From IMG/VR virus record IMGVR_UViG_3300045988_109049: DNA of 64,000 nucleotides. One strand, given 5' to 3'. The notes beneath the pieces are model-generated. The model ran no database searches, was not told where the DNA came from, and saw nothing but the letters and a program-made list of their open reading frames with translations. Within the stretch, counting starts at the first letter, position 1. The number at the start of each line of letters is the position of its first letter. The position numbers were made by a program, and so were the translations under genes. This stretch comes from a virus. Below are positions 5,804-46,900 of this stretch, in pieces.

Positions 5804-6713
5804 CTTCAGTTGGTTGTTTTGTTATCTTACAGATGTTTATTCTGTAATTCTTTATGTTTCCATAAAGCACGGACTATATCTTCATCCTATAAGGATGTTG
5901 GGCACTCGTGGGTATATTATATTCTATTTTCATAGTTTCAATACCTAGTCTCTGAACCTTTTATAACCATTTAAGTTATAACTTGGCTGCTGATTGTCCC
6001 TACTTATTGAATTGTCACACACTTGCATATTCCCAGTAATAACCATATCTTTTCTGATGAGTTTTAATACCACTAATTATGTTAGCATCTTTCCTAATAT
6101 TTCCTAATTGTCTGGCAGCTTCTCTAATAGATTGGTAAGTATTTATAATATTACCATCATTATCTATTTGATTAATCTGTCTTTTATTAGGATTAGATTC
6201 TCTAAGTTTTAATCCTATTTTAACTGCTTTATTTCCATAACAGTTATTATAAGACTTAGTACACCATTCAAGATTTTCTACAGAATTATTAGTCTTATTT
6301 TCATCTTTGTGGTTTATACATTCCAAATTGTTAGGATTTGGAATAAAAGTATCAGCTACTATTCTATGTACTGCAATAGTTCTTTTCTTGTTAGTGTCAT
6401 CGTATAATTTCACTATAGGATAGCCACTACTATCAAGTACTGAGGATAAAGGTTTCAAAATGTTACCTTGCCTATAACTAAATACTTTACCACTTTTAGT
6501 TACTTTATAGCTTGGATATTCTCCAAATCTACTTTTAATATTAAATAGTTCTTCTTCCATATAATGTTTTTGTATAGATTTATATGTGCAAAGATACTAT
6601 AAATATTTGAATTATGCAAATTTTGTATCAATAATCTAACAGGATGTTCCAGCAATTCACCCAATTTATTATTCTTTAGTATTACTACTAAAGCGAGTCC
6701 CAATCTTTCGATT
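5804..6713 (-). mobile_element. Group I intron splitting the RNAP gene (boundaries +/- ~10 nt)
   Basis: Minus-strand core elements: P gaattgctggaaca (6645-6658), Q aatcagcagccaag (5982-5995), R ggttcagagacta (5946-5958), S agatatagtcc (5871-5881). These are followed by a GAAA-tetraloop hairpin (5850-5867) and a second hairpin (5827-5847). Contains an HNH ORF. Confidence 0.8.
6015..6560 (-). CDS. Intron-encoded HNH homing endonuclease
   Basis: INHKDENKTNNSVENLEWCTKSYNN is an HNH_3-type motif. The C-terminal IREAARQLG segment looks like a NUMOD/IENR-type DNA-binding repeat. The ORF lies between the P and Q elements of the intron. Confidence 0.75.
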   Translation of the reverse strand: MEEELFNIKSRFGEYPSYKVTKSGKVFSYRQGNILKPLSSVLDSSGYPIVKLYDDTNKKRTIAVHRIVADTFIPNPNNLECINHKDENKTNNSVENLEWCTKSYNNCYGNKAVKIGLKLRESNPNKRQINQIDNDGNIINTYQSIREAARQLGNIRKDANIISGIKTHQKRYGYYWEYASV

Positions 6714-9700
6714 AAACTCTATAACCAATCAACTTTCTAAGGTCTTCAGGCAACTTGTTGATGTCAAGTTCATGAGTCCCTTCCTTCATAAGAGGTTCAT
6801 AGAATTCTCTTGAATAAGCAGGCATATAACATTCGAGATATTTGATTCTCTTGTTCTCACCTTCTCCTTCAAATACCACATGAAGCTCATCAGTCAAGCC
6901 ATAATCAGATACCTGAATTAATGCTCCACCTCTAATCTTCTGCTTGGTAATTCTGCTCTTGATGATACTATTAAGAAGAGTCTGTACTCTTTGAGATTGT
7001 ACAGGATCAAATAATGGAATATTGAACTGACCATTCTCATTAAGGGTACAGGCTCTGACCATATCAATTCCATATCTCTGATTACCTCTAATCTCTTCAA
7101 GTAGTGCCTCCTCTATCTTCTTAGGGTCTTTGAATATATCATTCACATTCTTGAATGCTTGCAAGATATTCTCAGTATTGATTGCATTATACAGGTCCAG
7201 CCATTCCTGCTTGGTCATTTTCTTACCATCAACCTCAATAATAGCATCTGATGCAATATCAGCAGTAATCAACTTTCTAATCTGAGTACCTACAAGCTGC
7301 ACAGCATCAATAGCATGTTCAGGAGTTGCAGTCTGAATACCATAATCTTCATAGCTTATTTTATGTACTACATTAGGATTCTCAATACCATTAGGCATAG
7401 TAGTATTCTTCAATACCTCCTTTACTTGCCTGAAGTCACTAACCTCGTTAAGGTCAATAACACCTTGCTTCCCGACTTTAGTAGTAGATTCAAATTGAAC
7501 TACATCAATATTGTTCTCTTCCATGAATTCATTAATAGCTTTAAGCTTGCTTGATTTACTAAGTGGACCAGCTATTAACTCATGCATGGCAAGTAATAAG
7601 AATTCAGAGTTCTTATGCTGTACAGGAGTCTTAATACCAGTATGACCTTCTACACCACTCATGTTGCTAATTTGGGTATATACATAAGGTTTCTTAGTCT
7701 GCCAGATGATATTAAAGTCAGCAATGTTCCAAGTACCATTTTTGAAATTATTATATGCCTGCTCCATCTCATCTGTCCATTGGCCAGACATACCAAGTAT
7801 TGCTCTATAGGAGCTTAAACTTCTATAAGCCTGTGCATCTGCAACATTAACTGCCTTAAACTTGTTAATAATATTATCTCTATCCATCTTGGGCATTTCA
7901 CCTTTCTTAACTCTCTCATCAAGAACTGTTTCAATATCACTCAGTACTGAAGATACAACCTCATCATCCTTCAAGTAGATAGTTCTTTCCCAATCTCTAC
8001 CAATTCTTTCTCCCTTATAAGTAGCTTTGGTATTCATTCTAAGAGCTGGGGCATGAACCTCCTTATATCTCTTCTGAAAGTCCTCTACATTCTTATAGAA
8101 AGCTAAGTCGGTAGTAGTTAACTCAATAATTTGAGAAGTAGCTAATTTACTATTCCAGTAATACTCTCTTAATGCAGCTTTTGTATTATTCTTTACTATA
8201 AGGTTTTTGTTAATACTATCTGCTTCTTGTTTAGTAATATCTCCTCTTATAGACTTCTGATTTATTAAGTCTTTAATTTGTTGGAACAAATCTGTAGCAA
8301 CTCTATCATCTACTGGATTATTGTTGTTATAATCTTTCAATAACAACTCCATATCAGTAGTCCATAAAGTAGTACCAAGGATTTCTTTAGCTTTGATAAG
8401 AGACTTTGCAGTTCTTGAGTTCTGCTGTGATTGACCTGCAAAAGGTAAGTACTTATACTTTCCATTTGGTAACTCATCAAATAAACCAATTCTTGCCCAG
8501 TCTCTATATGCCTCTTCAAAGCCATTATCCATAACTTCTCTAAGAGTATCTCTAATGAATTCCTTTAACTCAGCACCACTGCCTTCCCTGCTCAATCTAC
8601 TCAATCTGTCAAGGAATGTTTCTCCATTATTATATCTAATGGAATTAAGTGCAGGTAAGAACTTAAACTCAGCTCCCCCTATACTCTTAATACTTCCATC
8701 CTTCTTCCTGGAAATATCATAGTTTGCTATAGGGGAGATGTTTGGATTATTATTCTGAAATTCCTCATCTCTTGCTCTGACAAGCATTATTCTGTCATAT
8801 TCTTGATTGACTAAATCAGTTAGTTTATCAAGGATAATATCATCATAAGTCAGCTTGTTCCCATTCTCATCATATTCAACTCCACTTACATACTTTCTGA
8901 ATCTAATGAATTCGGCAGAAGGAGAGTCTGAAAGAATAGGAACATGATACCAGGCCCACTTTACACTTGTTCTGCTGTCCTCTGGATCTCCCCAATATTC
9001 AGTAAGTAATGCTAAAGTATAGTCTAAGTCATCCCAATTAGTATAATCCACTTTATCAGAGTTCAATACTACTTTATGATTTAGGCCTCTTCTCATTTCC
9101 TCAGAGTTAACCAGTTGCTCTAACCAGTCACTTCTCCATCTCCCATCTTTAAAGAACCACTCATATTGCTTAAACTCAGTATTAATAAATTCTTCAAATC
9201 TCTTCCTATCTCCTCTTACATTCTTAAGCTGTTTAATTAACTTTCCAAGATAATTTGGGGTGACATGAGAGTAATAAGACTTATCATTCTCTCTAACACT
9301 ACTTTCAATAGCATCTTCAGTTACATTAGCCATCATATTTGCAATTGCACTATAAGCTGAACCAAATGTATTGATTAAGTCTCCTCTCTTCTCTATTCCA
9401 TCTTCTCCTGTTTCTGACTTTATTTCCCCCTTCTTGATTCCTTTGAATATAATATTCAATTGAGGTAGTAGGACCATAATAGGGTCAGTAAACTTAGCTG
9501 TATCAGAAGTTCTAATATCAGTTAGTGCATTTCTTAATATAGAGGGATTGGCATCAATACCAATCATATTCAACAGCTTTAGTATAGTTTTCCAGATCCT
9601 ATCATCCTCAAGAAGTTCTAATCTTGCTTCAGTATCCAAATTAGAGAATTTATTGTTTAGAGTTTCAACCCACTTAAGACCTTTTTCAGCATTTTCAATA

Positions 9701-11064
9701 TTTATGTCCCCATTCTTCTCATATACACTATCATTATCAAGTTGCATACCATTCTCATAGTTATCTCTCCAAGCATCAAGAAGGTAATATACACCTTCAG
9801 GCTTGTTAATAGCAATGGTTTGCATCTTGAATGTACCATCAAGCATCGTCTTTTTCTTCTGGATCCAATAGGGTATAAAATCCTTTCTAAAATCTTGATA
9901 GAACTGAGAAAATAGAGTATCATCTTTCTCAAGCAATTCTCTTACTTGAGCCACCCAGGGTTTATTCCTTTCAAGCTCCTGTATAAGAGGAATCATATCT
10001 TCAGAAGTAATCATATCTCTCAATTTATCAATAAGAGTTGCATGAACATAATCAGCATCTAAATACCTTAGATTACCCAAATCATCTTCCTCATACATTC
10101 CTTCATAGTCAAGCCTGGGTATTTCCCTAATAACTTTTCTAACTGCTTGAGATGATAATTCATGGGAACTAACTTGTCTAAAGTTAGTCATCCAGCCATC
10201 TTTAAAAGTCTCTTCCTTATTATAATCATCAGCTTGCTCATCAAGCTCACTGTATCCTTCAGGAGTATCATCATTTAAGTTAGCATCTTTAGGAGCAATA
10301 TAGTTCAAGTCAATTCTAACTCCTTCTGTCATTATGAGTAATGTGCTAGCTTCTTCTGCCAAAGGTTTAAAGTTATCAACAACTTTTCTATAAGCTTGTT
10401 CCTTATATACAGCTTTTCTTCTTGCAGCATCCAATTTTTGTTCATCAGAGAATCTTTCAGATTCATCTATAACACCCTCATCAATTAATGTCTGCTCTCT
10501 TGCATTTATTGCCCCAAGTTCAATTTGTACTCTATTCTCTTCTGTATCGTTGATATAGGATTGAAATATATCCAATACTCTATCAAATAATCCAGCAGGG
10601 GTGTATTTCTTTATGGCATCAAATCTATTAAGGGAGCTTAACTCCATCTGTAATTGTAATCTTTCTTCATCAGAAGCTGTATCCATTCTCTTATTAAGAG
10701 AATCATTCATTTCCTGTAGTGCTTTATCTACCTCATTACTAAAGAACCTTGCAATAAGACTTACTCTATCTCTTCTTGTTCTTGGATCAAAGTCTAAATC
10801 AACCTTAGCTTGTTCTTCAATAGAAGAGACCTTAGGAGCATCAAATGAAGGAGATAATGCTTCATCGAGCATCTCTACTGTATTTGCACTTCTTAGTTTA
10901 AATCTAAAATTATTAAGTTCTCTTACAGTAGGATACTCTTCAATAGATTTATTATTCTCTTTTTGCCACAAAGCTACAAGACCCTTTACAGATTCCTCTG
11001 TTTCATCTTGTAACTCCTTAGTTAGGTACCTAATCTCTTCAGTTGTTACTAAACAATTATTCAT
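6714..11064 (-). CDS. Giant virion-type RNA polymerase, exon 1 (N-terminal ~1450 aa)
   Basis: A 1450-aa ORF that ends in a stop immediately at the start of the intron sequence. It continues in frame with exon 2 after intron removal. Confidence 0.65.
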
Positions 11065-14499: not shown

Positions 14500-14763
14500 T
14501 CATTTCGCATTGTCGTATGTAATTTCTCTCCAATAATTACTCCAAAGTCTAACTAATTGTTTTTCTGTATATGGTTCTGTTATACCCATATTTGCATTTA
14601 CATACCATATTCCGATGGAGTCAACAAGGATAAATCTATTCATGTCTACTTGATATATCTCATCATCGGGGTGTGCTTCCTTTACAGCAGTTGTACAGTC
14701 TCCATTTGTATAGCAGCTTGTTAGTATAATCGATACTAATAAAAGCAATAGGAATTTCTTCAT
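14500..14763 (-). CDS. Putative lipoprotein
   Basis: MKKFLLLLLVSIILTSC is a signal peptide with a lipobox Cys. ATG at 14763 follows the upstream stop at 14766. Confidence 0.55.
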   Translation of the reverse strand: MKKFLLLLLVSIILTSCYTNGDCTTAVKEAHPDDEIYQVDMNRFILVDSIGIWYVNANMGITEPYTEKQLVRLWSNYWREITYDNAK

Positions 14764-14765
14764 AG

Positions 14766-15566
14766 TTACTCCTCCCACTCGATTTTAATTGTGCCTAAAT
14801 ACGATGGTGGACAATTACTTACGGCTTCTTCTCTGTTAGGAAATACGCCAACAACTGATGTATCTCCATGATTATTTTTGCACAAGTTAATCCACCCCTC
14901 TTTCTTCTGGGGGAGCATCATTAAGTCATCTTTATATGTCGCGTCATCTTCAATTAGAACCTTACCTTTTTCATTATAACCATATACGGTTTCTTCTTTG
15001 GCAGTATCTTCTACCAAAGCAATGATTGGATAGCTTACGCCCTTGAATAAAAATTTTCTATCAAAGGAAATAATCCTTGCCTTTCTACCATCACGAGTAC
15101 ATACTGGCTTGCCAGCTTTGGCTGCTTCAAGGTCAAAGGGTTTAAGACTCAATTTCTTTTCTTCCATATTTTCTTTGTTTTGTTTAATTTCTACAAACAT
15201 TTCATTTATTAAGCATGAATATGTTGGATAATGATTTATGTGGCCATTCAATTTGCAGTCTCTTGAAAAATTATCATAAAAAGCACAATTATTACAAAGA
15301 GCATCAGAAACCTTTATTTTCTGGTATGATTTATTCTCTATCCTAATAGGCTCTCCGACCTTTTCAAGTTTCTTGAAGATTACAGATTTACCATCTTTTC
15401 TATAACATGATAAACATTCTCCTCTTATCTCAAATACATCACTACAATGAATATTACTCTTGGTATCTAAATCACAATTCTCACATCCAAGAGATTTTGT
15501 ATGAATACACTGATACCATTCTCCGTTGTACTCAAATATTTCTCCTACTTTTCTTTCCATAATCAT
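14766..15566 (-). CDS. Cys-rich hypothetical protein with a duplicated N-terminal module
   Basis: VGEIFEYNGEWYQC...CENC and VGEPIRIENKSYQK...CNNC look like two copies of one small module. Confidence 0.45.
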   Translation of the reverse strand: MIMERKVGEIFEYNGEWYQCIHTKSLGCENCDLDTKSNIHCSDVFEIRGECLSCYRKDGKSVIFKKLEKVGEPIRIENKSYQKIKVSDALCNNCAFYDNFSRDCKLNGHINHYPTYSCLINEMFVEIKQNKENMEEKKLSLKPFDLEAAKAGKPVCTRDGRKARIISFDRKFLFKGVSYPIIALVEDTAKEETVYGYNEKGKVLIEDDATYKDDLMMLPQKKEGWINLCKNNHGDTSVVGVFPNREEAVSNCPPSYLGTIKIEWEE

Positions 15567-15569
15567 ATT

Positions 15570-16097
15570 TCATTTTAAATCGAATATCTTACTTGAATCC
15601 CTAATAGAATCAATAGACATCTTAGCGCTTAATTGCCCCATAAATTCAGCAAAATTCATTGCCAAGTTCCAACTATTCCATTTGTGAGTAATCTCTACCA
15701 GTTCAAAAGCATTTAATTCGATAAGATTTTCGTTCTTTGTGCGAAGATCTTTAACAGCTTTTCGTATCGGTTCATATTTAGGACCTTTATATTTTGACGA
15801 GATGTCTATATCTCTCCTTTCAATAGTTCTGTATTCAGCTATATATGAAGGTAACATATTTGCTTGTATTGCATTATATACATCACTCTCCACGGGGCCA
15901 TATGGCATAGCATAGAAATTATCGAATATATCCAAAAGGTCATCGCCTCCTTCTTCCTTAGGAGCAGCAGCCAAAAACAGCAGTTTCATGGCTGTAAGTT
16001 TAGGAAACGGTTTGCCCTTAATCGTTTCATGATTATCCCGCCACTCTTCAAAAAGGTGGAGCATATAATCAAATGCCTCTATTTTATCTACTTTCAT
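15570..16097 (-). CDS. Panacea (DUF4065, SocA-like) antitoxin-domain protein
   Basis: LTAMKLLFLAA and FYAMPYGPVESDVYNAI match the Panacea/DUF4065 pattern (KLxKLLY ... W..GPV...vY). Confidence 0.5.
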   Translation of the reverse strand: MKVDKIEAFDYMLHLFEEWRDNHETIKGKPFPKLTAMKLLFLAAAPKEEGGDDLLDIFDNFYAMPYGPVESDVYNAIQANMLPSYIAEYRTIERRDIDISSKYKGPKYEPIRKAVKDLRTKNENLIELNAFELVEITHKWNSWNLAMNFAEFMGQLSAKMSIDSIRDSSKIFDLK

Positions 16098-19609: not shown

Positions 19610-20473
19610 CACATATGTTACGAATATGTCGATTCCACATATTCTCTTTAGATTTCTCTAAAGGTCGGACTATATCTTATAAAAATCTCCACATATAGGC
19701 TAGTTGCCCATTGGTTAGATTTCTATCAGTGCTTTTCAGCTGCTCTTGCAGCTTACTCCATTTCTGGATAGTCTCTGAACTCCATAATTTATAAGAGTAA
19801 CAATTAATAGGATATTTAGCTAATATAGAATGAATAATATAGGCTCCCTCATATTTATTTATTCCTAAATAATATAATGGTCTGCTATGATTATTATCTA
19901 CTCTTACTTTAGCTTTTACTCCTATACTCTCAAAGAAAGGAATAAATACATTTTCTTGAATATTCAGAGAAAATTTCTGAGTATTAAGGTTGTAATATAA
20001 GTCCCTCTTATGAAGGCTCCCATCATCATAGAACCACAATGCTAAACCTAACTCATCAAGATTACTCACTACTTCTTCTATAGGGAGTTCCTTGATTAAT
20101 TTAAGTGAAAACCAAGCTCCTCCATAATAAGTATATATGGGAGTTTGGTTATAACCATTGCTGTCTACATGATTTATTTTGCCTTTACCAATTAATTGTT
20201 TTTTATACTCTAAGTATTCCTTATGCTTACAATTGGATGTATATATAGTACTACCACTATTAGTAGTAGATATGCAACCATCCCCTAATATAGCAGTAAG
20301 AAAAACCTGAGTTTGCTCTCTTGTAAAATCATAAAGCTGCTTATTGCCTATTTCTCTTAAGTTACTTAAAATCATATTTAATACTTTTACTAGTTTATTA
20401 TTACAATAATTCAGTGATTAAATCTTTAAGGGTTTCAAGCAATTAACACTGTTTTACTACAACAAAATTACTT
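19610..20473 (-). mobile_element. Group I intron in PolA motif C
   Basis: The 5' exon ends in gaT and the intron ends in G (19610). R ggagttcagagactatcc lies at about 19766-19783 and S aagatatagtcc at 19667-19678. These are followed by a GAAA hairpin, a second hairpin and cgtaacatatgtg before the splice site. Confidence 0.85.
19677..20375 (-). CDS. Intron-encoded LAGLIDADG homing endonuclease
   Basis: Two LAGLIDADG motifs: FLTAILGDGCIS and LALWFYDDGSL. The ORF 3' end runs through the R element and stops inside the S element. Confidence 0.8.
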   Translation of the reverse strand: MILSNLREIGNKQLYDFTREQTQVFLTAILGDGCISTTNSGSTIYTSNCKHKEYLEYKKQLIGKGKINHVDSNGYNQTPIYTYYGGAWFSLKLIKELPIEEVVSNLDELGLALWFYDDGSLHKRDLYYNLNTQKFSLNIQENVFIPFFESIGVKAKVRVDNNHSRPLYYLGINKYEGAYIIHSILAKYPINCYSYKLWSSETIQKWSKLQEQLKSTDRNLTNGQLAYMWRFL

Positions 20474-29432: not shown

Positions 29433-30366
29433 CAATTTGTTACCCTAACAGCTCTTTATCTGTTAGTTCTATATGTTACCATATAGTTCGGACTATATCT
29501 TCATTGTTTACAATGCAGGGCACTCGTGTCAGGTTTATTATTTGAGCTATTCACCTGTTAGTCTCTGAACCTTCTACATACTTTTATGCTCTTCTGTAGC
29601 TTGGCTGCTGATTGACTCATTAAGTTGTTCCAGCAATTCACCCTGTTTATCCAGAACCCTTCTTTTACTATAAGTAATTAATTTATACTGCATAGATGGA
29701 ATAACAAAATCTTTAATCAGCTCTACAAATTTAGGAAAATCCTTAGCTTGCAGATACATACTATTATCATGCTTGCCTACAGTAAAATGTAAATCAAATT
29801 TATCTAATAATATATTAGCTAATAAAGATTGTTCTTCTAAAGTAAAAGAACAAGTAGATAAGATACATGAATTTTTAGTTACATAACCATCGTCCATATA
29901 CCATATAGCTAAACCTAAAGTATCCATATCTTTTACAAATTCTTCAAAAACTCTTTTATGACCATTAGAATCATAGTATTTTAATCTTATATTTGTAAAG
30001 ATAGGATGTAATCTAGATTTAAATCTATACCCTACTAATTCGTGTGAATATCTTTTATTATTTATATGATACTCAACTATAGGAGATACTAAATTATACT
30101 TATTTAGTATATTCCATTTATACTCAAGATATTCTTTTTGTTTTTCAGAATGTGCTATACTAAGACACATATTCTTAGTTTTACTTCCTACTGAACAAAA
30201 ACATCCATCTCCTAATAAACTTCCTATAAGAAGTTGTTTTAAGTCATTACCCATTTCTAAATCTTTATGATTCTTCATACTATCAAAATTTTTAATAGTA
30301 CAAAGATAAGGTATTTGACCTAATATTACAATACTTTAAGTAAATTATTTATAGTTACTTATTAAA
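29433..30366 (-). mobile_element. Group I intron in the UDG catalytic GQDPY motif
   Basis: The 5' exon ends in gaT (30367) and the intron ends in aaattG (29433). Q caatcagcagccaag lies at 29600-29613, R ggttcagagacta at 29559-29571 and S aagatatagtc at 29491-29501. These are followed by a GUAA hairpin, a second hairpin and ggtaacaaattg. Confidence 0.85.
29574..30278 (-). CDS. Intron-encoded LAGLIDADG homing endonuclease
   Basis: LLIGSLLGDGCF and LAIWYMDDGYV are the two LAGLIDADG motifs. Confidence 0.8.
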   Translation of the reverse strand: MKNHKDLEMGNDLKQLLIGSLLGDGCFCSVGSKTKNMCLSIAHSEKQKEYLEYKWNILNKYNLVSPIVEYHINNKRYSHELVGYRFKSRLHPIFTNIRLKYYDSNGHKRVFEEFVKDMDTLGLAIWYMDDGYVTKNSCILSTCSFTLEEQSLLANILLDKFDLHFTVGKHDNSMYLQAKDFPKFVELIKDFVIPSMQYKLITYSKRRVLDKQGELLEQLNESISSQATEEHKSM

Positions 30367-30552
30367 ATCCTGTCCCAGAAACACTACCTTCAAATCCTCG
30401 AATAGACATAACTTAAAAGCCCTAAACACATCAGTTTGCTTAGGGCATACAGACTTTATCATATACTCCTTAGATAATATATTCATTACATGATTAAGCT
30501 CTACTTTATCAATGACCTTCATCCAACCTCCAAAATATTCTTCTGTCGTCAT
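30367..30552 (-). CDS. ung: Uracil-DNA glycosylase, exon 1 (62 aa)
   Basis: Ends ...VVFLGQD. The next three codons and the stop are intronic. Confidence 0.8.
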
Positions 30553-32206: not shown

Positions 32207-32221
32207 ATTATCATTTCTCCT

Positions 32222-33406
32222 TTAAAAAATATAATCACTTAATATTTTAATACATTCTTCTATGTATATATTACTATCAAGCTTCTCTAATTCTTCTTTG
32301 ATTGCAGTAGCACATAATGTAACTATCTCATCATTATCCACTCCTTGTCCAACCAAATCCTCATCTATTGTATACCAACACAGGAATTCTATAAATCCTT
32401 CAGCCCACTTCTTGAACATCTCCAGTCCTTCTTCTCCCTTCCCAAATCTTCTTTCATATATAGGTATCATTCCTGCTACCCAAGATTTTATATTTATTTT
32501 ACTTTCTCTAGGGATAACCACACTTCCTGTTACCAATTGAAGGGTTAAAGACTTTGCCAGACCTTTATTAAAACTATACTTCTTTGTATCATCTCTAAAT
32601 TTTAAAGTCTGCTGTCTCTGACCTAAATCATCTTCTTCCATTAGATTATATATATCCTTTTGTGTCAATGGTTCAAACTTGGAAAAAGGCTTATACGTGT
32701 GAAGAGGAGGATCAAATCTACTATTTATTTTCTGAATCTTAGACTCCTCTATCTCTTTAAGTCTGGATTCTAACTCTGTATATTCACTACACCCTTCTAC
32801 TTCTATATCAAGATAGTAATATTCCAATTCCTCAGTATTAGTTCCTTCAAAATTTCGAACTTCCTTGATTTGGGTGTTACCAAAACTAGGATAGCAGAAA
32901 CTTTCCACAATACACTTGTTAACCAATCTTCTAGTTATGGCTGCTGTATAATTCCCTCTATTATTAACTATTAAGGAAACAAAGTGATTTCTATCCAATC
33001 CTTCCTCTTTCAGAGTTCTTATATCTGTTCCACTGAAGAAGGTATCCATGTTATTATGTGAATGGATTAATCCCATATGACAATCTAGCAGCTCAGGGTT
33101 GTTCGCTACATAACTGCATACATCAGGAGACATATCAAACTCCGTATAAGCAGAACTTCCGATATCCATAACACATATATCTTCACATTTTATGATTAGA
33201 CTTCTATCTTCAAAGGATCCCTCAGATGTAAAAAATAGAACTCCAGACCACTCATCTTTCCATACCTTTCTACATATGTATCTTATTTTTTCTTCTACTT
33301 TCTTCGGTATTATCATTTTATAAGTAGTAGAATTCTTGGTCATCTGAATTATTTGTTCCTCTGCTTTTTTCTGACTCATCTCTGAGACTTGATTTATTCC
33401 TTCCAT
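32222..33406 (-). CDS. JAB/JAMM (MPN+) metalloprotease domain protein with unknown ~200-aa C-terminal region
   Basis: DEWSGVLFF supplies the conserved Glu. HSHNNMDTFFSGTD is an exact HxHx7SxxD JAMM motif (about 33023-33064). The true start may be a downstream ATG (33379, 33343 or 33316). Confidence 0.7.
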   Translation of the reverse strand: MEGINQVSEMSQKKAEEQIIQMTKNSTTYKMIIPKKVEEKIRYICRKVWKDEWSGVLFFTSEGSFEDRSLIIKCEDICVMDIGSSAYTEFDMSPDVCSYVANNPELLDCHMGLIHSHNNMDTFFSGTDIRTLKEEGLDRNHFVSLIVNNRGNYTAAITRRLVNKCIVESFCYPSFGNTQIKEVRNFEGTNTEELEYYYLDIEVEGCSEYTELESRLKEIEESKIQKINSRFDPPLHTYKPFSKFEPLTQKDIYNLMEEDDLGQRQQTLKFRDDTKKYSFNKGLAKSLTLQLVTGSVVIPRESKINIKSWVAGMIPIYERRFGKGEEGLEMFKKWAEGFIEFLCWYTIDEDLVGQGVDNDEIVTLCATAIKEELEKLDSNIYIEECIKILSDYIF

Positions 33407-34631
33407 ATTTACAATTTACTAATTTTAATATTCTATTCAATAAAAAACCTATTATATCTGGATTTAAGATGGTAGTAACATAATTATTAATATTATCTCC
33501 TTCTGTTATATGAACTACTACTTCTTTCCCCTTAAATGTGCCCATCACTCCTAGATTAGATCTATTAATCTCTAAAACATCCCGGGTATTAGTAATTCTG
33601 TAAATACTATCCTTAAATACAAATACCTTGGTTAAAATATTTTCTAGAGACTCTTCCTCTTTTCTTATAATTCCTTTTTGATATATATATCTTCCTTTGG
33701 TATTAAACCAAGTGATAAATTCATTACTTACTAGTAGTATAAATTTCGTTATATTCATACCAATAGAGTAACCCCCATTTTTGTAATTGAAGATAAGTTT
33801 TTTCTGTTCTATGAAATATTTAATGAAATCATAAACCATAGGCTTCAAACATGATGGTATATATACCGAATCATTAAGACCGATATGATCTGTTTTAACA
33901 CTTCTGTTAGAAGCCACCTCCTCTAATCTCCTATAAGGACCTCCACTTAGGGATTCTGTTGCTACATACTTCTCCAATTCTACACAAAACAGTCTCCAAA
34001 TATCCAAATCATAAAGAACATTCAAGGAATTTACTGTATTTCTTATAGGACCACTTCCCAAACATACTTGAAGAAACTCTTTAGGGTTCCTCTTTGGTAT
34101 TCCACATACATGGGAATGCATATAGTCACAAAAATACTGTGTCATTGTATATTCCCCTCTATTAAGAAGGAAGGATCCTACCATAGTACCGTCCATATCT
34201 ATTGTTACTTTGACATATAGTTCAGTAATATCTATAAAATGATCATATTCATTACTAACTCTTACTTCTGGGAAATATACTATGATGTGAGACTGTATCT
34301 TACTCCCTAATTTCAATATTACCTCATCCAGAAGATCCCTAATGCTAGGGATACTACTTAGAATTTCATCAGGTATGTCCTTTATTAATTGTATATTAGA
34401 CATTTTTTTCTTTAACCTGGATGACTCCTCAGTGCCCAGTGCTGTTTCAATACTTATATTATCATAAGTTTTCGAGAATTCCTCTTCTATTTCTGAAATG
34501 GTAGGAACATCTTGTAAGTCTACCTTATCTTCTCCAAAGAAATCTTCGAATATTTCTAATACACTTGTTATATTTCGTAAACGTTCCTTACATATTGCTT
34601 CTATAACTTTCCTAGTTTTTTCCCCTATCAT
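33318..34631 (-). CDS. Candidate E2/UBC-like protein (437 aa)
   Basis: A beta-rich stretch is followed by YMHSHVCGIPKRNPKEFLQVCLGSGP. This resembles the UBC HPN...G.ICL catalytic region (about 34050-34125). It sits directly upstream of the JAB and E1 genes. Confidence 0.35.
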   Translation of the reverse strand: MIGEKTRKVIEAICKERLRNITSVLEIFEDFFGEDKVDLQDVPTISEIEEEFSKTYDNISIETALGTEESSRLKKKMSNIQLIKDIPDEILSSIPSIRDLLDEVILKLGSKIQSHIIVYFPEVRVSNEYDHFIDITELYVKVTIDMDGTMVGSFLLNRGEYTMTQYFCDYMHSHVCGIPKRNPKEFLQVCLGSGPIRNTVNSLNVLYDLDIWRLFCVELEKYVATESLSGGPYRRLEEVASNRSVKTDHIGLNDSVYIPSCLKPMVYDFIKYFIEQKKLIFNYKNGGYSIGMNITKFILLVSNEFITWFNTKGRYIYQKGIIRKEEESLENILTKVFVFKDSIYRITNTRDVLEINRSNLGVMGTFKGKEVVVHITEGDNINNYVTTILNPDIIGFLLNRILKLVNCKYGRNKSSLRDESEKSRGTNNSDDQEFYYL

Positions 34632-34641
34632 ATCATATAAT

Positions 34642-34674
34642 AAAAAAAAAGCAGGTAAGAAGAATCTTACCTGC
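34642..34674 (-). terminator. Intrinsic terminator between the Ubl-like gene and the E2-like gene
   Basis: Perfect 9-bp stem gcaggtaag/cttacctgc (34651-34659 and 34666-34674), followed on the minus strand by T9. Confidence 0.7.
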
Positions 34675-34691
34675 TAGTAAACAAACCTTTA

Positions 34692-35321
34692 TCAAACAAA
34701 ATCAAACATTTCATCAATCTCATCATCTGAGTAGGTGGAGAGCTCTTTTTTTGGCTTTACAGTGTTAGAGAAGTACTTACCATTAAGAATATTAGTAGCC
34801 TCCTCTCTTTCCAAAATTTCAGCATCTACCAAAGAGTCTAATAGGCATTTAATAGAGGTTTTCAATGAAGTTACTTCTTTCTCTAAATCACCTTTAGGAG
34901 CTTCTTTCTTAGATGTAGAACCGTGATGCTCTTCAACCAGTTTCAGAAGATCTTCAGATTTACACAGAGTATAATTTTTCCCGTACTTTCTAATACAGGC
35001 ATCCTCCAAGTGATATTCTTTTATACTATTGTAAATCTCTTTTCTATTTACAGCTCCAGATCTAATCTTTTTATTAGGAGAAGTCAACATGAACACAAGC
35101 TCATTAGTAGTCTGTCCTTTATAAAGGACATCATGAGGAAGAATAGAATCATTATTGATTAATTCAGTTTTTGAAAGTCCTTCATAGAATGTCATGTCAT
35201 GATAATTTACGCCTGATCTATCCAGATCTCTCTTCAGTTCCCCTAATGTAGTAGCACTAGACATAATTACTTTTTTCTCTTGTGTTCTCGTAGATACGAT
35301 TGTGATTTTTCTTGCTTCCAT
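34692..35321 (-). CDS. Candidate beta-grasp (ubiquitin-like) N-domain protein with helical middle and acidic C-terminal tail
   Basis: Residues ~5-88 (KITIVS..KKVIMS..TTLGELKRDLDRSGV..MTFYEG..ELVFMLTSPNKKIRSG) follow the beta-beta-alpha-beta-beta ubiquitin pattern and end at Gly. The protein tail is DDEIDEMFDFV. Confidence 0.35.
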   Translation of the reverse strand: MEARKITIVSTRTQEKKVIMSSATTLGELKRDLDRSGVNYHDMTFYEGLSKTELINNDSILPHDVLYKGQTTNELVFMLTSPNKKIRSGAVNRKEIYNSIKEYHLEDACIRKYGKNYTLCKSEDLLKLVEEHHGSTSKKEAPKGDLEKEVTSLKTSIKCLLDSLVDAEILEREEATNILNGKYFSNTVKPKKELSTYSDDEIDEMFDFV

Positions 35322-38078: not shown

Positions 38079-38445
38079 AAATCTCCTTTAACTTATCTAC
38101 TATTATAGATAAATCATTAGGGATCTCATCAGGAAGATCATCCAATGCCCCAAGACTGTCTTTAGCAGGATACTCCCCGTCAAATTCTTTCACAAAGTGT
38201 TTAATGGGTTTTTTATTCTCTGCGTCATATCCTACCTTGCCAAATAGAATAATATCGAACTTACCTTCAGGTGTTATATAGTCATCCACCATCTTTCCAG
38301 TAGTCTTAAACTTATAAGAAATGGAATCACCATTTTTATCTTTATACTCCTCATAGTGGGCACAACAGATAATATTCTTATTCTCCGGGAATCCCTTAAA
38401 GGCATCAAATATAAGACCCACACCATAGCCAATCTGCTTAGGTGT
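38071..38445 (-). CDS. AAA_24/Sak4-like RecA-family ATPase, exon 2
   Basis: TPKQIGYGVGLIF... continues exon 1 in frame after intron removal. The combined length of ~256 aa is typical for this family. Confidence 0.6.
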   Translation of the reverse strand, partial: TPKQIGYGVGLIFDAFKGFPENKNIICCAHYEEYKDKNGDSISYKFKTTGKMVDDYITPEGKFDIILFGKVGYDAENKKPIKHFVKEFDGEYPAKDSLGALDDLPDEIPNDLSIIVDKLKEIYG

Positions 38446-39420
38446 CATTTTGTTACCCTAAAGGCTTTTTATCCTTTAGTTCTATAGTTTCTTGCATTGT
38501 TACCATAGTTCAGCATACATTTTCATCCTCTAATTGAGGAGTCGGATACTCTTGGATACATTATATTCTCTATATAATAGAGGTTCAGTATCTATGCGTT
38601 ACACTGTGCAGTCCTTTTATCTACTGCATTTAGCACGGTATTAAGTGCTTTATCCCTTTTTCTTTTCAAAAACACTGTAGCATCTTTATACAGATAGTCA
38701 AAGATAGCTTTTCTTACTTTTATACTATAACTAAAATGTAAACTCCAATAGGGAGTGGTCTTTCTATTCTCTTTATAGATTACCCATTTTAGTTCAGGTA
38801 TAGCTGTTAAAAACCTATCTTTAATTTGCTCTGCAAATTTAGGTGAGTTACAAATCATACTGAAATGTCTATCACCAATAGACCCATCTCCATCCATAAA
38901 ACCTCTTATGAAATCTCTTTCATACTCCTGAGGTATATTAGGAAATTCAAAATCAGAATCATAAGTTTTTCTTGGTTGTATATTATATAAAGACCTTAAA
39001 TCATTTATAAGTTCCTTATCACATATTTGAAGAATAGTAGTTTGTTTCCTATTACCACTAGGTTGATAATATCTAAGATTGTTATCAGGAGCTATCTCTC
39101 TCTGTATTAATCTTAAAATTTCATCATCTTCAGATACACATCCAAATCTCAATCTTATTAATTTACTAGGTCTGTCTTTTCTTACTGATTCTTCTATAGA
39201 ACCATCAGCTACTAAATAGCCTAAAATATAGGCTTTAACTTCAGAGTCGATTATTTTAAAATAATCACTTTTGTGTTCCTTCTTATTAGGAATAAAGTCT
39301 CTCATATTATTTATATTTTGGTTGGCAAATATATAAATAATTTATGAGATATGCAATACCCTTCACCGTTTTTACCCGATTATTTTCACATAGATTGCTC
39401 TATGCAGGGACACACATTCT
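38446..39420 (-). mobile_element. Group I intron in the ATPase gene (divergent family member)
   Basis: The 5' exon ends in gaT (39421) and the intron ends in ggtaacaaaatG (38446). The 3' hairpin architecture is the same as in the UDG intron. The P7 halves are changed together: gcata (38593-38597) and tatgc (38513-38517). Confidence 0.7.
38592..39305 (-). CDS. Intron-encoded LAGLIDADG homing endonuclease
   Basis: ILGYLVADGSI and FIRGFMDGDGSI. Confidence 0.8.
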   Translation of the reverse strand: MRDFIPNKKEHKSDYFKIIDSEVKAYILGYLVADGSIEESVRKDRPSKLIRLRFGCVSEDDEILRLIQREIAPDNNLRYYQPSGNRKQTTILQICDKELINDLRSLYNIQPRKTYDSDFEFPNIPQEYERDFIRGFMDGDGSIGDRHFSMICNSPKFAEQIKDRFLTAIPELKWVIYKENRKTTPYWSLHFSYSIKVRKAIFDYLYKDATVFLKRKRDKALNTVLNAVDKRTAQCNA

Positions 39421-39816
39421 ATCCCATCCACCCTTCATGGCATTCGCCATATAGAAATCCTGAGCAAGATAATTCATATCATCTATAATAATATTCTTAT
39501 AGGGTGATTTCTTTATTATGTTAACAATTTCTGCAACCGCTGCAAATCTGTCAAGTCCTGTAAGATTATCTACCTGTACCCTATTTCCTGTAGCAAGAGT
39601 ATTTATATTTATAAGTTTCTGTGTAGGTTTACCTACATTCTCTACTCCGATACTACCCTCAATCAATTTAAAGTCAGGGTTAGGAACACCTCTGCCAATA
39701 CATTGGATAACATAGGTTTCTTTTGGATCAAGTCCCTTAATACCTAATTTATCCCTACCACAATAAGAAGTGGTTTTTCCAAACCCACTCTTTGCTAAAA
39801 CAAGTATCTTAGCCAT
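39421..39816 (-). CDS. AAA_24/Sak4-like RecA-family ATPase, exon 1
   Basis: Walker A VLAKSGFGKTT and Walker B-like NIIIDDMNYL. The exon ends ...KGGWD. Confidence 0.6.
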
Positions 39817-39823
39817 TCTAATT

Positions 39824-41014
39824 CTACTTTTTAAATTTGTTATACTTCTTATTTATTTTTCTTATTCTATAAGTGATAAAAGACTTATGTACCTTTTTTC
39901 CTCCCTTCTCTTCCTCTGATTCCAAAAAGTTATATACTTTCTGTATAGCTACCCTCTCAGTAGGTAAGGGCAATTCATGAAATACAGATGCTGCTCCATC
40001 GAAATATAAGGGGTATATATTACCTCCACTTCCACTATGTCTATCCTCTAAAATAGAGAGAAATCTTATTTTCTTTTTGAATTTGGTTATGTCATATCCC
40101 TCAAACTCTCTCAAACCATACTTAAAAGGACTGAATAATCCGAATATATAATCTATATCCCTTGAAGTTACCTTGCAATCTCCTAAACCATCCGTAGTGG
40201 GATAGAGCATATTCAACTTCCTATTTTCAATTCCTTCTTGACTTTGAGCTTGATGTTGCACAGCTACTATATGATATTCCAACTGGTCTCTTAAAGTTAG
40301 GAAGTATTTACTCATTTTCTCTATATTCTCTATCTTATTATAGCCTGACTCTCTAGATAAATTAGTAAAGTTATCTAAGATTATAACATGATAACATTCA
40401 GGGTCATTCCATTCAAAATAGTCGGAAACTTCTATATCTTTTAACTTTTCGGACAAACTATCTTTCACCTGTACAGTCTTTTTATGCAAAGTTCCCCTGG
40501 ATAAAGCATATTCTCTACAGAACTTATTAATGCCCGTGGGATTTTTTACATCATCTATAAAGGTCACTATCTCTTGGAATTTTTCAATATAAGTTTTATA
40601 TCTTTCAGATTCTATAAGTTCTAGTTCCCTCTCACCTAAAAGTTTCTCTTTCGATACTGACTTTAGTTGCTGGGTATCTATTCTTATATTATCCAACCTA
40701 AATAGTAAATGACATAAAAAATCGTAAAACTTGTCTGTTTTACTCATCTCTAAAGTAAAGTATAGAATCTTGAGATTATAGCTAGCATTTTTCTCTATTA
40801 TATCAAATATAGGTTCATATACTAACATGTAATCTACTAACTTACTCTTTCCAACTTTTTGTGAAGCAGTTATTATACCATATCTTTTTTTCTCAAATCC
40901 AGGAAAATCATAACTCATTCTCTTGAAGGGAATAGGAATACAGTTGGTTTTTCCTTCTATGATTCTATCTCTCCTTTCCTTTAAATCCTTTATAGCTCTA
41001 GAATAATCTTCCAT
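39824..41014 (-). CDS. DnaB-like replicative helicase
   Basis: Walker A ITASQKVGKSKL, Walker B HVIILDNF, and HIVAVQHQAQS typical of the RecA-like DnaB C-domain. Confidence 0.6.
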   Translation of the reverse strand: MEDYSRAIKDLKERRDRIIEGKTNCIPIPFKRMSYDFPGFEKKRYGIITASQKVGKSKLVDYMLVYEPIFDIIEKNASYNLKILYFTLEMSKTDKFYDFLCHLLFRLDNIRIDTQQLKSVSKEKLLGERELELIESERYKTYIEKFQEIVTFIDDVKNPTGINKFCREYALSRGTLHKKTVQVKDSLSEKLKDIEVSDYFEWNDPECYHVIILDNFTNLSRESGYNKIENIEKMSKYFLTLRDQLEYHIVAVQHQAQSQEGIENRKLNMLYPTTDGLGDCKVTSRDIDYIFGLFSPFKYGLREFEGYDITKFKKKIRFLSILEDRHSGSGGNIYPLYFDGAASVFHELPLPTERVAIQKVYNFLESEEEKGGKKVHKSFITYRIRKINKKYNKFKK

Positions 41015-41017
41015 ACA

Positions 41018-41620
41018 TTAACTTAATTGAGTAGTCCAATCACTTCTAAGGTCGTCTGTCTGCCCTGCATTCTCAATGTAACTAATCAGCTCAGAGTCTC
41101 CCTCTACTTCTCCTGAAGCTCCTACTTTTTCCTTAAATATGAAATACTTCAACAGTCTCATATACGTGTAGTTCCCATTGAATCCTTCTACATACTTTTT
41201 AGTAGCCTGAATTATCTGTTCATCTGTATATTCATTACCATACTTTTTAAAGAATAATTTAAGCCTTCTCACAATTAAGGCTAGTCCATCTGCCCAATAA
41301 TAACTTGTACCTGCTTTTTTCCCTTTAGGAAATATTGCTTTCATTTGCTGAGCTAAACTAACCAATCTGTCTTGTGGTTCTTGCTCTTTACTAGAATCTA
41401 ATATTACTGAGTCTAATACTGTAGAACCTTCATTGGTCAGTTTCCATCCTATAGGTTGTCTGTACTCATCTCTATCTGCTGTAATGAATCCTTTTTCAAT
41501 AAGGCCGATTTCAGCTTTCTTTAAGTCAGCCTTATTGAATATGGATAACATTAAGAGAACTTCTCCCAGGCATAAACTATTTTGGGTTATAGCCATTTCA
41601 TTTAAACATATTGTAGTCAT
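41018..41620 (-). CDS. Hypothetical protein (replication-module associated)
   Basis: ORF track. Start/stop coupled between the two helicase genes. Confidence 0.4.
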   Translation of the reverse strand: MTTICLNEMAITQNSLCLGEVLLMLSIFNKADLKKAEIGLIEKGFITADRDEYRQPIGWKLTNEGSTVLDSVILDSSKEQEPQDRLVSLAQQMKAIFPKGKKAGTSYYWADGLALIVRRLKLFFKKYGNEYTDEQIIQATKKYVEGFNGNYTYMRLLKYFIFKEKVGASGEVEGDSELISYIENAGQTDDLRSDWTTQLS

Positions 41621-45564: not shown

Positions 45565-45924
45565 TTATTTCAATTCAACAGGTTCATCTTCCCATGTAAG
45601 ATCCCTACCTATAAGTTTCTTAATAGAGCCTTTTGGGAGAACAACTAAGTAATCTAATTTGTTACCATCAGAATCAAATTCAAAATTATCCCAGAATGAA
45701 AGAACTTCTATAGCTTTTCCCCTATCCATTTTGAATGGACTATTGTAAGTTGCTCTACTATACCTTTTACCATCTCCATCGACTATACAACTTATCCCAT
45801 TAGAAGCGCACTTATCACATAAAACAGGATCACATTTTTTGTATCTCTTATAATATCCACTTCTGTATAAAGAATAATCTGATATTATTTCCGTACCATC
45901 CTTATTAACCGCCAGATATGCCAT
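45565..45924 (-). CDS. Hypothetical protein
   Basis: ORF track. Confidence 0.45.
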   Translation of the reverse strand: MAYLAVNKDGTEIISDYSLYRSGYYKRYKKCDPVLCDKCASNGISCIVDGDGKRYSRATYNSPFKMDRGKAIEVLSFWDNFEFDSDGNKLDYLVVLPKGSIKKLIGRDLTWEDEPVELK

Positions 45925-46100
45925 ACTGTATAATTTATTTCTTTAATATTACAAATAATTTTACTCTTACTTATAGTTCACAAATTTGTGGAGCATGAGG
46001 GATTCGCGAAGTTAGTAATTTCTTTAATATTCCAAAATAATTTCTATTATACTGTTATCTATGTGCTTGATTATTCTTAACTTTGTACAAAACTTAAAAT

Positions 46101-46661
46101 ATGGAGTTATACAAACAGAAAAGAAAACTAGTAACTGTCACTTGTGATTACTGTAGAGAGAGTTTCTCTAAACCAGAATCAGAGTATAAAAGAAATATTA
46201 AATTAGGCAGACATAACTTTTGTTCAAGGTCTTGTTGCGGTAAATACATTGCATCTCTCAACAAGCCTCTTACTCAAGCTCAAATAGGGTCTAGAAACTC
46301 TATAAGAAACTATAGTAGTAATAGAAATGATGAGTACACACCATTTAGAGAAATTCTAAGAACCGTAAGAAACAGGTGTAAAGAATTTAATCTAGATTTA
46401 CCTTATCTTGTGGAACTTTGGAACTCACAAAATGGTATTTGTCCTTATACAAGACTTAAACTTGTTTTACCTACTTGGAATACTAATCCTGACATAAGAT
46501 ATAGAGCTTCACTTGACAGAATAGATTCTTCTAAAGGATATATTAAAGGTAACGTGCAATTTGTTGCGACTCCTATCAATTATCTTAAAGGAACTATGTC
46601 AGATGAGACTACTAAAGCTTATCTCAGAGAAATTGCCGCTTCTATTTTCATAGAAGATTAG
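46101..46661 (+). CDS. Free-standing HNH endonuclease on the opposite strand to all neighbours
   Basis: GICPYTRLKL...ASLDRIDSSKGYIKGNVQFVATPINYLKG is an HNH core. There is an N-terminal CxxC...C..CC zinc-finger-like region. A TAacTTTG box lies about 25 nt upstream. Confidence 0.65.
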   Translation: MELYKQKRKLVTVTCDYCRESFSKPESEYKRNIKLGRHNFCSRSCCGKYIASLNKPLTQAQIGSRNSIRNYSSNRNDEYTPFREILRTVRNRCKEFNLDLPYLVELWNSQNGICPYTRLKLVLPTWNTNPDIRYRASLDRIDSSKGYIKGNVQFVATPINYLKGTMSDETTKAYLREIAASIFIED

Positions 46662-46900
46662 ACTATATCATCACCTCAATAATTTGAGGGTAGGACGCTC
46701 AAGCTGGTAATTAAGGAGACTGTACTCCTCCAGTAGTCGTTGCACTTTCATTAGGTGTACCTAATGCTTAGCTCAGGATTGGCATGATAAAAGCTAGTTC
46801 TGAGCTTTTATTTTAGCGTTCCCTGAGTTCATCCTATTTTGTAAATACTATCACTAGTAAGCGGGTCCGAACTTAAACCCTCGTCTTACTAACTTTTAAT
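46600..46900 (-). ncRNA. ORF-less group I intron-like ribozyme core without identifiable coding exons
   Basis: Minus-strand elements: P gaactcaggg (46821-46830), P5 hairpin (about 46788-46810), Q aatcctgagc (46771-46780), P6 hairpin (46750-46765), R caacgactac (46733-46742), S gatatagtc (46661-46669), GAAA hairpin (46639-46656). P and Q pair perfectly (CUCAGG/CCUGAG). The ends are not defined. Confidence 0.6.

What the first reader, a model, noticed from the sequence alone, without database searches (positions are those of the whole stretch)
5804..46900. One intron family occupies five sites in a single phage genome; three of the four coding insertions follow a GAT codon, two of them at catalytic Asp residues
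The five copies share near-identical blocks in the same order: cggactatatcttcat, a hairpin, gggcactcgtg, tagtctctgaacc and cttggctgctgattg. They also share the same 3' tail.

They carry three LAGLIDADG ORFs, one HNH ORF or no ORF. This suggests spread within the genome by ectopic or reverse-splicing transposition, with later endonuclease swapping.

Three insertions follow a GAT (Asp) codon: UDG GQD, PolA motif C YD and ATPase GGWD. The first two of these are catalytic residues. The fourth insertion, in the RNAP, follows a U and lies ~30 codons upstream of the RNAP metal loop.

Four of the interrupted products are needed for transcription or replication. Infection would therefore depend on splicing efficiency.
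Basis: partly seen in the sequence, partly recalled or inferred. Interest (0 to 1): 0.68.

Follow-up and report, generated by a model that had tools for sequence, protein, structure and literature searches.

The report
Five unrelated introns in one phage
This gut (crAss-like) phage carries five self-splicing group I introns, but they are separate acquisitions from a widespread phage intron pool rather than one family that multiplied inside the genome; two have unusual details, a non-standard last base in one and a tmRNA host gene for another.

Summary
The window is a crAss-like phage (Steigviridae), about 92% identical to phage cr128_1. It holds five group I introns, all on the minus strand:
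- A: virion RNA polymerase, 5814-6714, HNH ORF.
- C: DNA polymerase A, 19610-20473, LAGLIDADG ORF.
- B: uracil-DNA glycosylase, 29433-30366, LAGLIDADG ORF.
- D: Sak4-like ATPase, 38446-39420, LAGLIDADG ORF.
- E: 46007-46875.

Each window intron is closer to an intron in another phage than to any intron in its own genome. Intragenomic spread of one family is therefore not supported.

Confirmed points:
- Three insertions follow GAT codons (GQD|PY, YD|E, GGWD|T).
- Introns A, B and D are missing from close relatives with clean junctions, so they look like recent mobile acquisitions.

New points:
- E is not intergenic. It splits the T-loop of a phage tmRNA gene and carries an antisense HNH-like ORF.
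- A ends in A, not the canonical G, in ten genomes, with matching P9.0 and P10 pairings.

High intron density in crAss-like phages is already published (Yutin 2021).

The parts
5814..6714 (-). Intron A (901 nt) in the virion RNA polymerase gene. 5' splice site after U6715 (..AGAGUU|UAAUCG). The last nucleotide is A5814 (..GAUAACAAAACAA|CCAAC), not G.
   Evidence: Clean indel against four intronless alleles. Rfam 54.4 bits. P1 5 bp and P10 4 bp. Same intron at the same site in 9 IMG/VR contigs.
6015..6560 (-). HNH homing endonuclease ORF (181 aa). From its position between the two halves of the core, I place it in the P5 loop of intron A.
   Evidence: Pfam HNH_3 E 4e-8, plus an I-HmuI NUMOD-like match that is below Pfam's cut-off. 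PHROG 59 HNH endonuclease, 9e-36.
6715..11064 (-). RNA polymerase exon 1 (1450 codons).
   Evidence: ORF list. Continuous 2431-aa CDS in cr128_1. Spliced junction peptide is 99.2% identical to cr128_1.
2949..5813 (-). RNA polymerase exon 2. The DFDVD metal-binding motif lies 38 codons after the junction.
   Evidence: The DFDxD motif as the catalytic site of the crAss RNAP comes from bioRxiv 10.1101/2020.03.07.982082.
19610..20473 (-). Intron C (864 nt) in DNA polymerase A, between Asp and Glu of motif C (PYD|EINCE). Last nucleotide is G19610.
   Evidence: P1 7 bp and P10 5 bp. Truncated Rfam hit of 34 bits, E 2e-7. Intronless homologues are continuous across the junction. Present in cr128_1.
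19677..20375 (-). LAGLIDADG ORF (232 aa) of intron C.
   Evidence: Pfam LAGLIDADG_2, 4e-11.
29433..30366 (-). Intron B (934 nt) in uracil-DNA glycosylase, at GQD|PYP. Last nucleotide is G29433.
   Evidence: Clean indel against cr128_1. Rfam 85.9 bits. All 40 listed UDG homologues are unsplit.
29574..30278 (-). LAGLIDADG ORF (234 aa) of intron B. It starts upstream of P3 and, from its coordinates, appears to run on into P6 of the core.
   Evidence: Pfam LAGLIDADG_2, 1.9e-33. Only 28% identical to the intron C ORF.
38446..39420 (-). Intron D (975 nt) in the Sak4-like ATPase, at GGWD|TPKQ. Last nucleotide is G38446. P7 is a variant, GCAUA/UAUGC.
   Evidence: P1 5 bp and P10 4 bp. All 30 listed homologues are unsplit; cr85_1 is 93% identical and continuous. 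72% identity over 155 nt to capsid and terminase gene introns of other phages. Covariation in P7, P7.1 and P9.1. No Rfam hit.
38592..39305 (-). LAGLIDADG_3-type ORF (237 aa) of intron D.
   Evidence: Pfam LAGLIDADG_3, 2.2e-7. PHROG 4645 endonuclease, 1.6e-38.
46007..46875 (-). Intron E (869 nt) in the T-loop of a tmRNA gene (GAGGGUU|...|CGAAUCCCUC). Last nucleotide is G46007.
   Evidence: Four IMG/VR contigs lack it exactly at 46876|46006. Rfam tmRNA hit of 61.3 bits, E 5e-22, on the intronless alleles. P1 5 bp and P10 5 bp. Ribozyme core 86 bits.
46101..46661 (+). HNH/EndoVII-like ORF (186 aa), encoded antisense inside intron E, downstream of P9.
   Evidence: PHROG 3322 endonuclease 7e-20; PHROG 1035 endonuclease VII; PHROG 3118 HNH endonuclease. 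The same arrangement occurs in cr1_1 and cr6_1.
46876..47305 (-). tmRNA exon 1. Starts GGGGCAUGAUUUGG and ends in the first two T-loop bases.
   Evidence: The homologous region of cr106_1 is annotated 'transfer-messenger RNA, SsrA'.
45986..46006 (-). tmRNA exon 2: the rest of the T-arm and the 3' strand of the acceptor stem (CGAAUCCCUCAUGCUCCACAA).

Best explanation
The window carries five independent group I introns with the extra helices of subgroup IA. Each was acquired separately from a cosmopolitan pool of phage introns.

Shown here:
- Each intron sits in a conserved gene: virion RNAP, PolA, UDG, Sak4-like ATPase and tmRNA.
- Four of the five (A, C, D, E) have a guide sequence that pairs with both their own flanking exons, with a U.G wobble at the 5' splice site. 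In B this pairing is weak and its guide sequence is not securely assigned.
- Each carries its own nuclease gene, in a different position.

Inferred mechanism:
- During co-infection, the intron-encoded endonuclease cuts the intronless allele of a related phage. Repair then copies the intron in (DNA-level homing).
- The ribozyme splices itself out of the RNA, which keeps the host gene functional.
They are not traces of recent intragenomic duplication.

Two special cases:
- The RNAP intron lineage ends in A rather than G, so its exon-ligation step is probably non-canonical and perhaps slow.
- The fifth intron interrupts the tmRNA T-loop between loop bases 2 and 3. This is the subsite so far reported only in Bacteroidia.
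For: Identity and structure:
- Rfam group I hits.
- P1 with U.G, plus an adjacent P10, for A, C, D and E.
- In-frame excision restores GQDPY, YDE and the RNAP and ATPase sequences.

Mobility:
- A and B are absent from the 92%-identical cr128_1 with base-exact junctions, and its ATPase gene has no intron.
- None of the 30-40 listed GenBank relatives has an intron at the A, B or D site.
- E is absent from 4 IMG/VR contigs.
- A is present in 9 IMG/VR contigs, with compensatory changes in P2 and P9.1.

Separate origins:
- Nearest neighbours of every intron lie in other phages and other genes.
- The nuclease families differ and the ORFs sit in different positions.

Prior literature:
- High group I intron density in crAss-like phages (PMC7886860).
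- Group I introns in the tmRNA T-loop (PMC11915505).
Against: - No RNA data: splicing and homing are inferred, not observed.
- A-B similarity (64%, with several exact blocks of 13-16 nt) is above background. An old shared ancestry within crAss-like phages cannot be excluded.
- The outgroup sample is small (about 18 introns), and the tree uses a 215-nt segment with simple distances.
- Intron A lacks the last G that the standard mechanism needs, while its P7 G-binding helix looks canonical.
- B has only a weak P1/P10 (3 + 1 bp).
- D is not recognised by the Rfam model.
Confidence: 0.75

Rival explanations
1. One reading: one intron lineage multiplied inside this genome by ectopic or reverse-splicing transposition, and its endonuclease genes were later swapped.
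For: - A and B share exact core blocks and about 64-69% identity.
- B and D share a 41-nt tail at 85% identity.
- Three target sites end in GAU.
Against: - Every intron has a closer relative outside the genome.
- The shared blocks and the tail are also present in Clostridium and Proteus phage introns.
- The guide sequences differ completely between the five introns.
- E and C show no specific similarity to the others.
- cr128_1 has C and E but not A, B or D. That pattern fits stepwise gain from outside.
Confidence: 0.08
2. The introns are ancient at these sites and were lost precisely from most relatives. On this view the polymorphism reflects loss, not gain.
For: - C and E are shared with cr128_1.
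- Intron A copies in IMG/VR differ by about 10%, with compensatory changes, so that lineage is not brand new.
Against: - It would need many independent precise deletions across 30-40 relatives.
- The exon DNA flanking A is 88-90% identical to cr128_1. That is about as diverged as the intron A copies are from each other.
Confidence: 0.1
3. Intron A is a dead insertion. Either the RNA polymerase is made as two polypeptides, or splicing uses the upstream G5826 and adds four residues.
For: - The element ends in A, not G.
- A stop codon follows exon 1 immediately.
- G5826 is in frame in the window and would add ITKQ.
Against: - In L020 and L021 the 12-nt tail reads IT*Q in frame. L023 has the same tail sequence.
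- There is no start codon between that stop and the conserved PTEDKYSM codons. Those codons vary only synonymously, so they are translated.
- P10 (CCAA/UUGG) and a covarying P9.0 (UG with CA) point to the exact boundary.
- The split would fall 38 residues before the catalytic DFDVD.
Confidence: 0.12

Closest known systems
Group I introns of crAss-like phages (Yutin et al. 2021, Nat Commun, PMC7886860)
   Same: Multiple self-splicing group I introns with endonuclease ORFs in core genes of one crAss-like genome. [quoted passage not shown]
   Different: That paper stresses the Delta and Zeta groups and detected introns through their protein domains. This genome is a crAss001-like Steigviridae phage. 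The sites are RNAP, PolA motif C, UDG, Sak4-like ATPase and tmRNA, and the splice sites are mapped to the base.
Classical phage subgroup IA introns (T4 td/nrdB/sunY, SPO1 DNA polymerase, Staphylococcus phage Twort). This comparison is from my own knowledge.
   Same: Extra helices between P7 and P3', a GAUAUAGUC-type P7 strand, HNH or other homing endonuclease ORFs in peripheral loops, and insertion in conserved nucleotide-metabolism or polymerase motifs.
   Different: Only similarity was shown, to related Clostridium, Staphylococcus, Proteus and Flavobacterium phage introns. The formal subgroup was not assigned.
Group I introns in the tmRNA T-loop (tmRNA database paper, PMC11915505; Williams 2002, 'invasion by an intron', from memory)
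   Same: The intron splits the T-loop of tmRNA. The site between loop bases 2 and 3 corresponds, by my numbering of the paper's text, to the 'position 3' subsite that the paper found only in class Bacteroidia.
   Different: - Here the tmRNA is phage-encoded.
- The intron is 869 nt; that survey found none above 700 nt.
- Its ORF is HNH/EndoVII-like and antisense. The survey searched with Pfam/HMMER for LAGLIDADG genes and reported only those, and few of them (36 of 883).
Coxiella burnetii 23S rRNA intron lacking the canonical omegaG (Raghavan et al. 2007, J Bacteriol). The title is cited in PMC11270868; details are from memory.
   Same: A natural group I intron whose last nucleotide is not G.
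   Different: That one is in a bacterial rRNA gene. Here the host is an essential phage protein gene, the feature is conserved in 10 genomes, and the P9.0 pairing covaries with it. Splicing is untested here.

Membership tests
Group I intron (Rfam RF00028) | Match to the covariance model of the catalytic core | tested here: met
   A 54.4, B 85.9 and E 86 bits, all at or above the gathering score of 50. The 3' half of C scores 34 bits, E 2e-7, below gathering. D has no hit. So this is met for three, partly for C, and not met for D by this test.
Group I intron | 5' splice site after a U that forms a U.G wobble in P1 with an internal guide sequence; 3' exon pairs next to it (P10) | tested here: met
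   P1 + P10 base pairs: A 5+4, C 7+5, D 5+4, E 5+5. B is weak at 3+1.
Group I intron | Last intron nucleotide is G (omega G) | tested here: not met
   Met for B, C, D and E. Not met for A: the last base is A in the window and in all 9 IMG/VR copies.
Group I intron | Removal restores an uninterrupted, conserved host gene | tested here: met
   The spliced RNAP, UDG, PolA and ATPase peptides align in one piece with intronless homologues. Intronless tmRNA alleles score 61 bits for RF00023.
Group I intron | Self-splicing with guanosine in vitro or in vivo | not testable with these tools
   No RNA data are available.
   In both local-alignment scores and the NJ tree, each intron groups with introns of other phages.
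Mobile (homing) intron | Presence/absence polymorphism with exact junctions among close relatives | tested here: met
   A and B against cr128_1. D against 30 homologues. E against 4 IMG/VR contigs. C is shared only with cr128_1.
Mobile (homing) intron | Encoded endonuclease cuts the intronless target site | not testable with these tools
   Only family assignments are available: HNH_3, LAGLIDADG_2, LAGLIDADG_3 and HNH/EndoVII-like.
tmRNA (RF00023) as host gene of intron E | Full-length match to the tmRNA model, with tRNA-like ends and a tag reading frame | tested here: met
   L033 61.3 bits and L029 60.8 bits, model positions 1-374. The window exons match the intronless L033 allele across the splice junction; over exon 1 as a whole the two are 94.6% identical. 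The tag GNTYRAAA is inferred by eye. ARAGORN did not call the gene.

The most novel reading that the evidence does not exclude
The RNA polymerase intron belongs to a lineage that splices with a terminal adenosine in place of the near-universal terminal guanosine. The feature is kept in at least ten phage genomes inside an essential gene, and the P9.0 pairing has co-evolved with it (J7/9 UG with CA-A, against AA with UU-G in intron B and AC with GU-G in intron C). It could act as a built-in brake on production of the virion polymerase.
Probability: 0.45. Interest if true: 0.6.

Novelty: new member of a known kind. Interest (0 to 1): 0.4.

Why it matters
The headline idea, one intron family multiplying inside a phage genome, does not hold, and intron-rich crAss-like phages are already described. 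Three results remain useful:
- Base-exact maps of five introns. These correct the annotation of the close relative cr128_1: its PolA is listed in pieces and its tmRNA region has no annotation.
- A clean case of recent intron gain between 92%-identical phages.
- Two testable oddities: an intron in an essential gene that lacks the canonical last G, and a phage tmRNA split by an intron that carries an antisense nuclease gene. The first bears on how strict the guanosine requirement of group I splicing is in nature.

Tried and rejected
- Intron E in a tRNA. I first read the Rfam boundaries (46639-46908) as the whole intron and tested a tRNA-Arg(UCG) host. ARAGORN found nothing on the spliced sequence. 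Intronless contigs later showed the true boundaries, 46875-46007, and a tmRNA host.
- G5826 as the 3' splice site of intron A, adding four residues. Rejected because the 12-nt tail contains an in-frame TAA in L020 and L021; L023 has the same tail.
- GAT as a general property of this intron lineage. The exon ends of nine outside introns gave no consistent pattern. Only Proteus terminase (IWLD|) and the Bajarodcaudo virus 1 RNAP (SDFD|) fit.
- A bacterial origin for intron E. One genome-contig scan gave five MAG contigs, several with tRNA arrays and possibly phage contigs. This was inconclusive, apart from an ORF-less copy in a tmRNA-like T-loop on a Muribaculaceae MAG contig.
- Literature searches for natural introns ending in A. 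These found only the Coxiella title. The paper itself is not held.
Full report
**What the window is**

A 12-kb query matches uncultured phage cr128_1 (Crassvirales, Steigviridae, Mahlunavirus) at 91.6% identity. A whole-window comparison is collinear with that genome at 73-98% identity. Nearly all genes from 2949 to 48798 lie on the minus strand.

**Checking the observation**

- Rfam finds group I introns at 46639-46908 (86 bits), 29469-29716 (85.9) and 5850-6093 (54.4), all on the minus strand. A permissive scan of the whole window adds none.
The PolA intron matches two of them with 1-3 mismatches. The other two introns match none.
- Pairwise BLAST gives A-B 69% over 208 nt, A-D 66% over 149 nt and a B-D tail of 71% over 83 nt. 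C is weak, and E shows nothing beyond a 14-nt core motif.
- ORF types are HNH_3 with a sub-threshold NUMOD-like match (A), LAGLIDADG_2 (B and C; only 28% identical to each other) and LAGLIDADG_3 (D).

**Exact boundaries**

- Comparison with cr128_1 gives base-exact indels. Intron A is 5814-6714, between GTT and CCA. Intron B is 29433-30366, between GAT and CCT.
- Reading frames and intronless homologues fix C at 19610-20473 (PYD|EINCE) and D at 38446-39420 (GGWD|TPKQ).
- Four introns have a guide sequence that pairs with both flanking exons, with U.G at the 5' splice site. P1 + P10 base pairs are A 5+4, C 7+5, D 5+4 and E 5+5. B is weak at 3+1.
- D is missed by Rfam. However, it is 72% identical over 155 nt to capsid and terminase gene introns of other phages. 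An alignment of D with three of these relatives shows covariation, including P7 GCAUA/UAUGC changing to GCGUA/UACGC.

**Is it one family that spread inside the genome?**

No.

- The B core matches Clostridium phage CPQ4 at 75.5% over 179 nt. It also matches introns in a Clostridium tape-measure gene, a Proteus terminase gene, Flavobacterium and Staphylococcus phages, and the dUTPase intron of other crAss phages.
They also have the same P9 hairpin and the GAUAACAAAAUG tail.
- I compared a 215-nt 3' core across 23 introns with one method.

| Pair within the window | Identity | Pair with an outside intron | Identity |
|---|---|---|---|
| A-B | 64% | B - CPQ4 | 73% |
| A-D | 55% | A - Bajarodcaudo virus 2 capsid intron | 71% |
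| B-D | 52% | D - capsid introns of Bajarodcaudo virus 1 and cr128_1 | 65% |
| C - others | 41-47% | E - cr6_1 | 66% |
| E - others | 38-46% | | |

- By local-alignment score, C's best match is a cr128_1 capsid-gene intron.
- No two window introns are sisters in the tree.

**Are the sites polymorphic?**

Yes.

- cr128_1 lacks A and B, and its ATPase gene is continuous. It has C and E.
- In GenBank phages, all listed homologues are unsplit at the UDG site (40), the ATPase site (30) and the RNAP site (40). Only cr128_1 shares the PolA intron.
- Nine IMG/VR contigs carry intron A at the same site.
- The simplest reading is separate gains by endonuclease-mediated homing from a shared phage intron pool. 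This step is inferred.

**The GAT pattern**

- Three of the four coding insertions follow GAT. A simple null gives P of about 0.003-0.009, but the test is post hoc.
- Two sites are catalytic Asp residues by established knowledge: the family 1 UDG GQDPY motif and PolA motif C.
- Two outside introns also follow GAT at functional motifs: Proteus terminase IWLD| and Bajarodcaudo virus 1 RNAP SDFD|. Others do not.
- I take this as the known tendency of homing endonucleases to target conserved motifs, combined with the required U at position -1. It is not a family-specific rule.

**Intron E sits in a tmRNA gene**

- Four IMG/VR contigs are contiguous from window 46876 to 46006. The inserted element is therefore 46875-46007 (869 nt). 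It ends in G and contains the plus-strand ORF 46101-46661.
- That ORF matches endonuclease, endonuclease VII and HNH PHROGs.
- The intronless alleles give a full-length tmRNA hit of 61.3 bits, E 5e-22. The junction reads GAGGG UU|CGAAU CCCUC AUGCUCC A, so the intron lies between T-loop bases 2 and 3.
- The Rfam intron hit took a tmRNA helix for P1. The true P1 is GGGUU/GACCC, with P10 CGAA/UUCG.
- The cr106_1 homologue is annotated as SsrA.
- The tmRNA database paper reports T-loop introns at four subsites. Position 3 was seen only in Bacteroidia, homing endonuclease genes were rare and of the LAGLIDADG type, and no intron exceeded 700 nt (PMC11915505).
- The same ribozyme-plus-antisense-nuclease unit occurs in cr1_1 and cr6_1. 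cr6_1 and an ORF-less copy on a Muribaculaceae MAG contig show the same split T-arm.

**Intron A ends in A**

- Four intronless alleles read AGAGTT|CCAAC. The insert ends GAUAACAAAACAA.
- All nine IMG/VR copies end in CAA before CCAAC. The three bases before that CAA vary: UAA, AUA, AAA or AAU.
- In L020 and L021 the only nearby upstream G would create an in-frame UAA; L023 has the same tail. The first exon 2 codons (PTEDKYSM) change only synonymously. So the boundary must lie at the A.
- P10 (CCAA/UUGG) abuts P1.
- The two bases before the last nucleotide covary with J7/9: B has AA with UU-G, C has AC with GU-G and A has UG with CA-A.
- The P7 G-binding helix is identical in A and B. No compensating change is visible, so splicing efficiency is an open question.
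- The one precedent I could document is the Coxiella 23S rRNA intron, from its title only.

**Verdict**

The phenomenon is known (PMC7886860). The terminal A of the RNAP intron and the intron-split phage tmRNA are worth an experiment.

Noticed in passing
window 45986-46006 and 46876-47305 (minus strand): The phage encodes a tmRNA of about 451 nt once spliced. ARAGORN misses it even in intronless alleles. A likely tag frame is GGC AAC ACU UAU AGA GCU GCC GCC UAA, giving GNTYRAAA, read by eye against the Rfam alignment.
   Followed up: partly
L012 2336-2457 and 1054-1199; L011 1601-1801: RAGATH-7-assoc, RAGATH-9 and RAGATH-22 RNAs score above gathering in the non-coding regions of cr6_1 and cr1_1 that also hold the E-type intron. 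The RAGATH-7-assoc hit lies directly upstream of the intron, so it may be part of that phage's tmRNA exon 1.
   Followed up: no
L004 (cr128_1 record 73757-76913): The major capsid gene of cr128_1 is annotated in three pieces. Two group I cores are detectable nearby, one resembling intron D and one resembling intron C. The capsid gene lies outside this window.
   Followed up: partly
L009 6035-6930 (Bajarodcaudo virus 1): A related phage has a different LAGLIDADG-bearing group I intron in the same RNA polymerase gene. It sits directly after the first two Asp residues of the catalytic motif (GSDFD|), about 40 codons downstream of the intron A site.
   Followed up: partly
window 14525-15872: The window has about 1.35 kb absent from cr128_1, with ORFs 14766-15566 and 15570-16097. 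The next 0.8 kb is replaced by unrelated sequence.
   Followed up: no
window 52585-52656 (+): Rfam calls a third tRNA here (53.8 bits) that ARAGORN does not report. The two tRNA-Arg(TCT) genes at 47732-47804 and 47959-48031 are found by both tools.
   Followed up: no
window 30367-34735 and 38088-41023: The replication module is much more diverged from cr128_1 (73-83% identity, or not alignable by BLAST) than the flanking regions (88-98%). This suggests modular exchange. The ATPase is closest to cr85_1 at 93% amino-acid identity.
   Followed up: no
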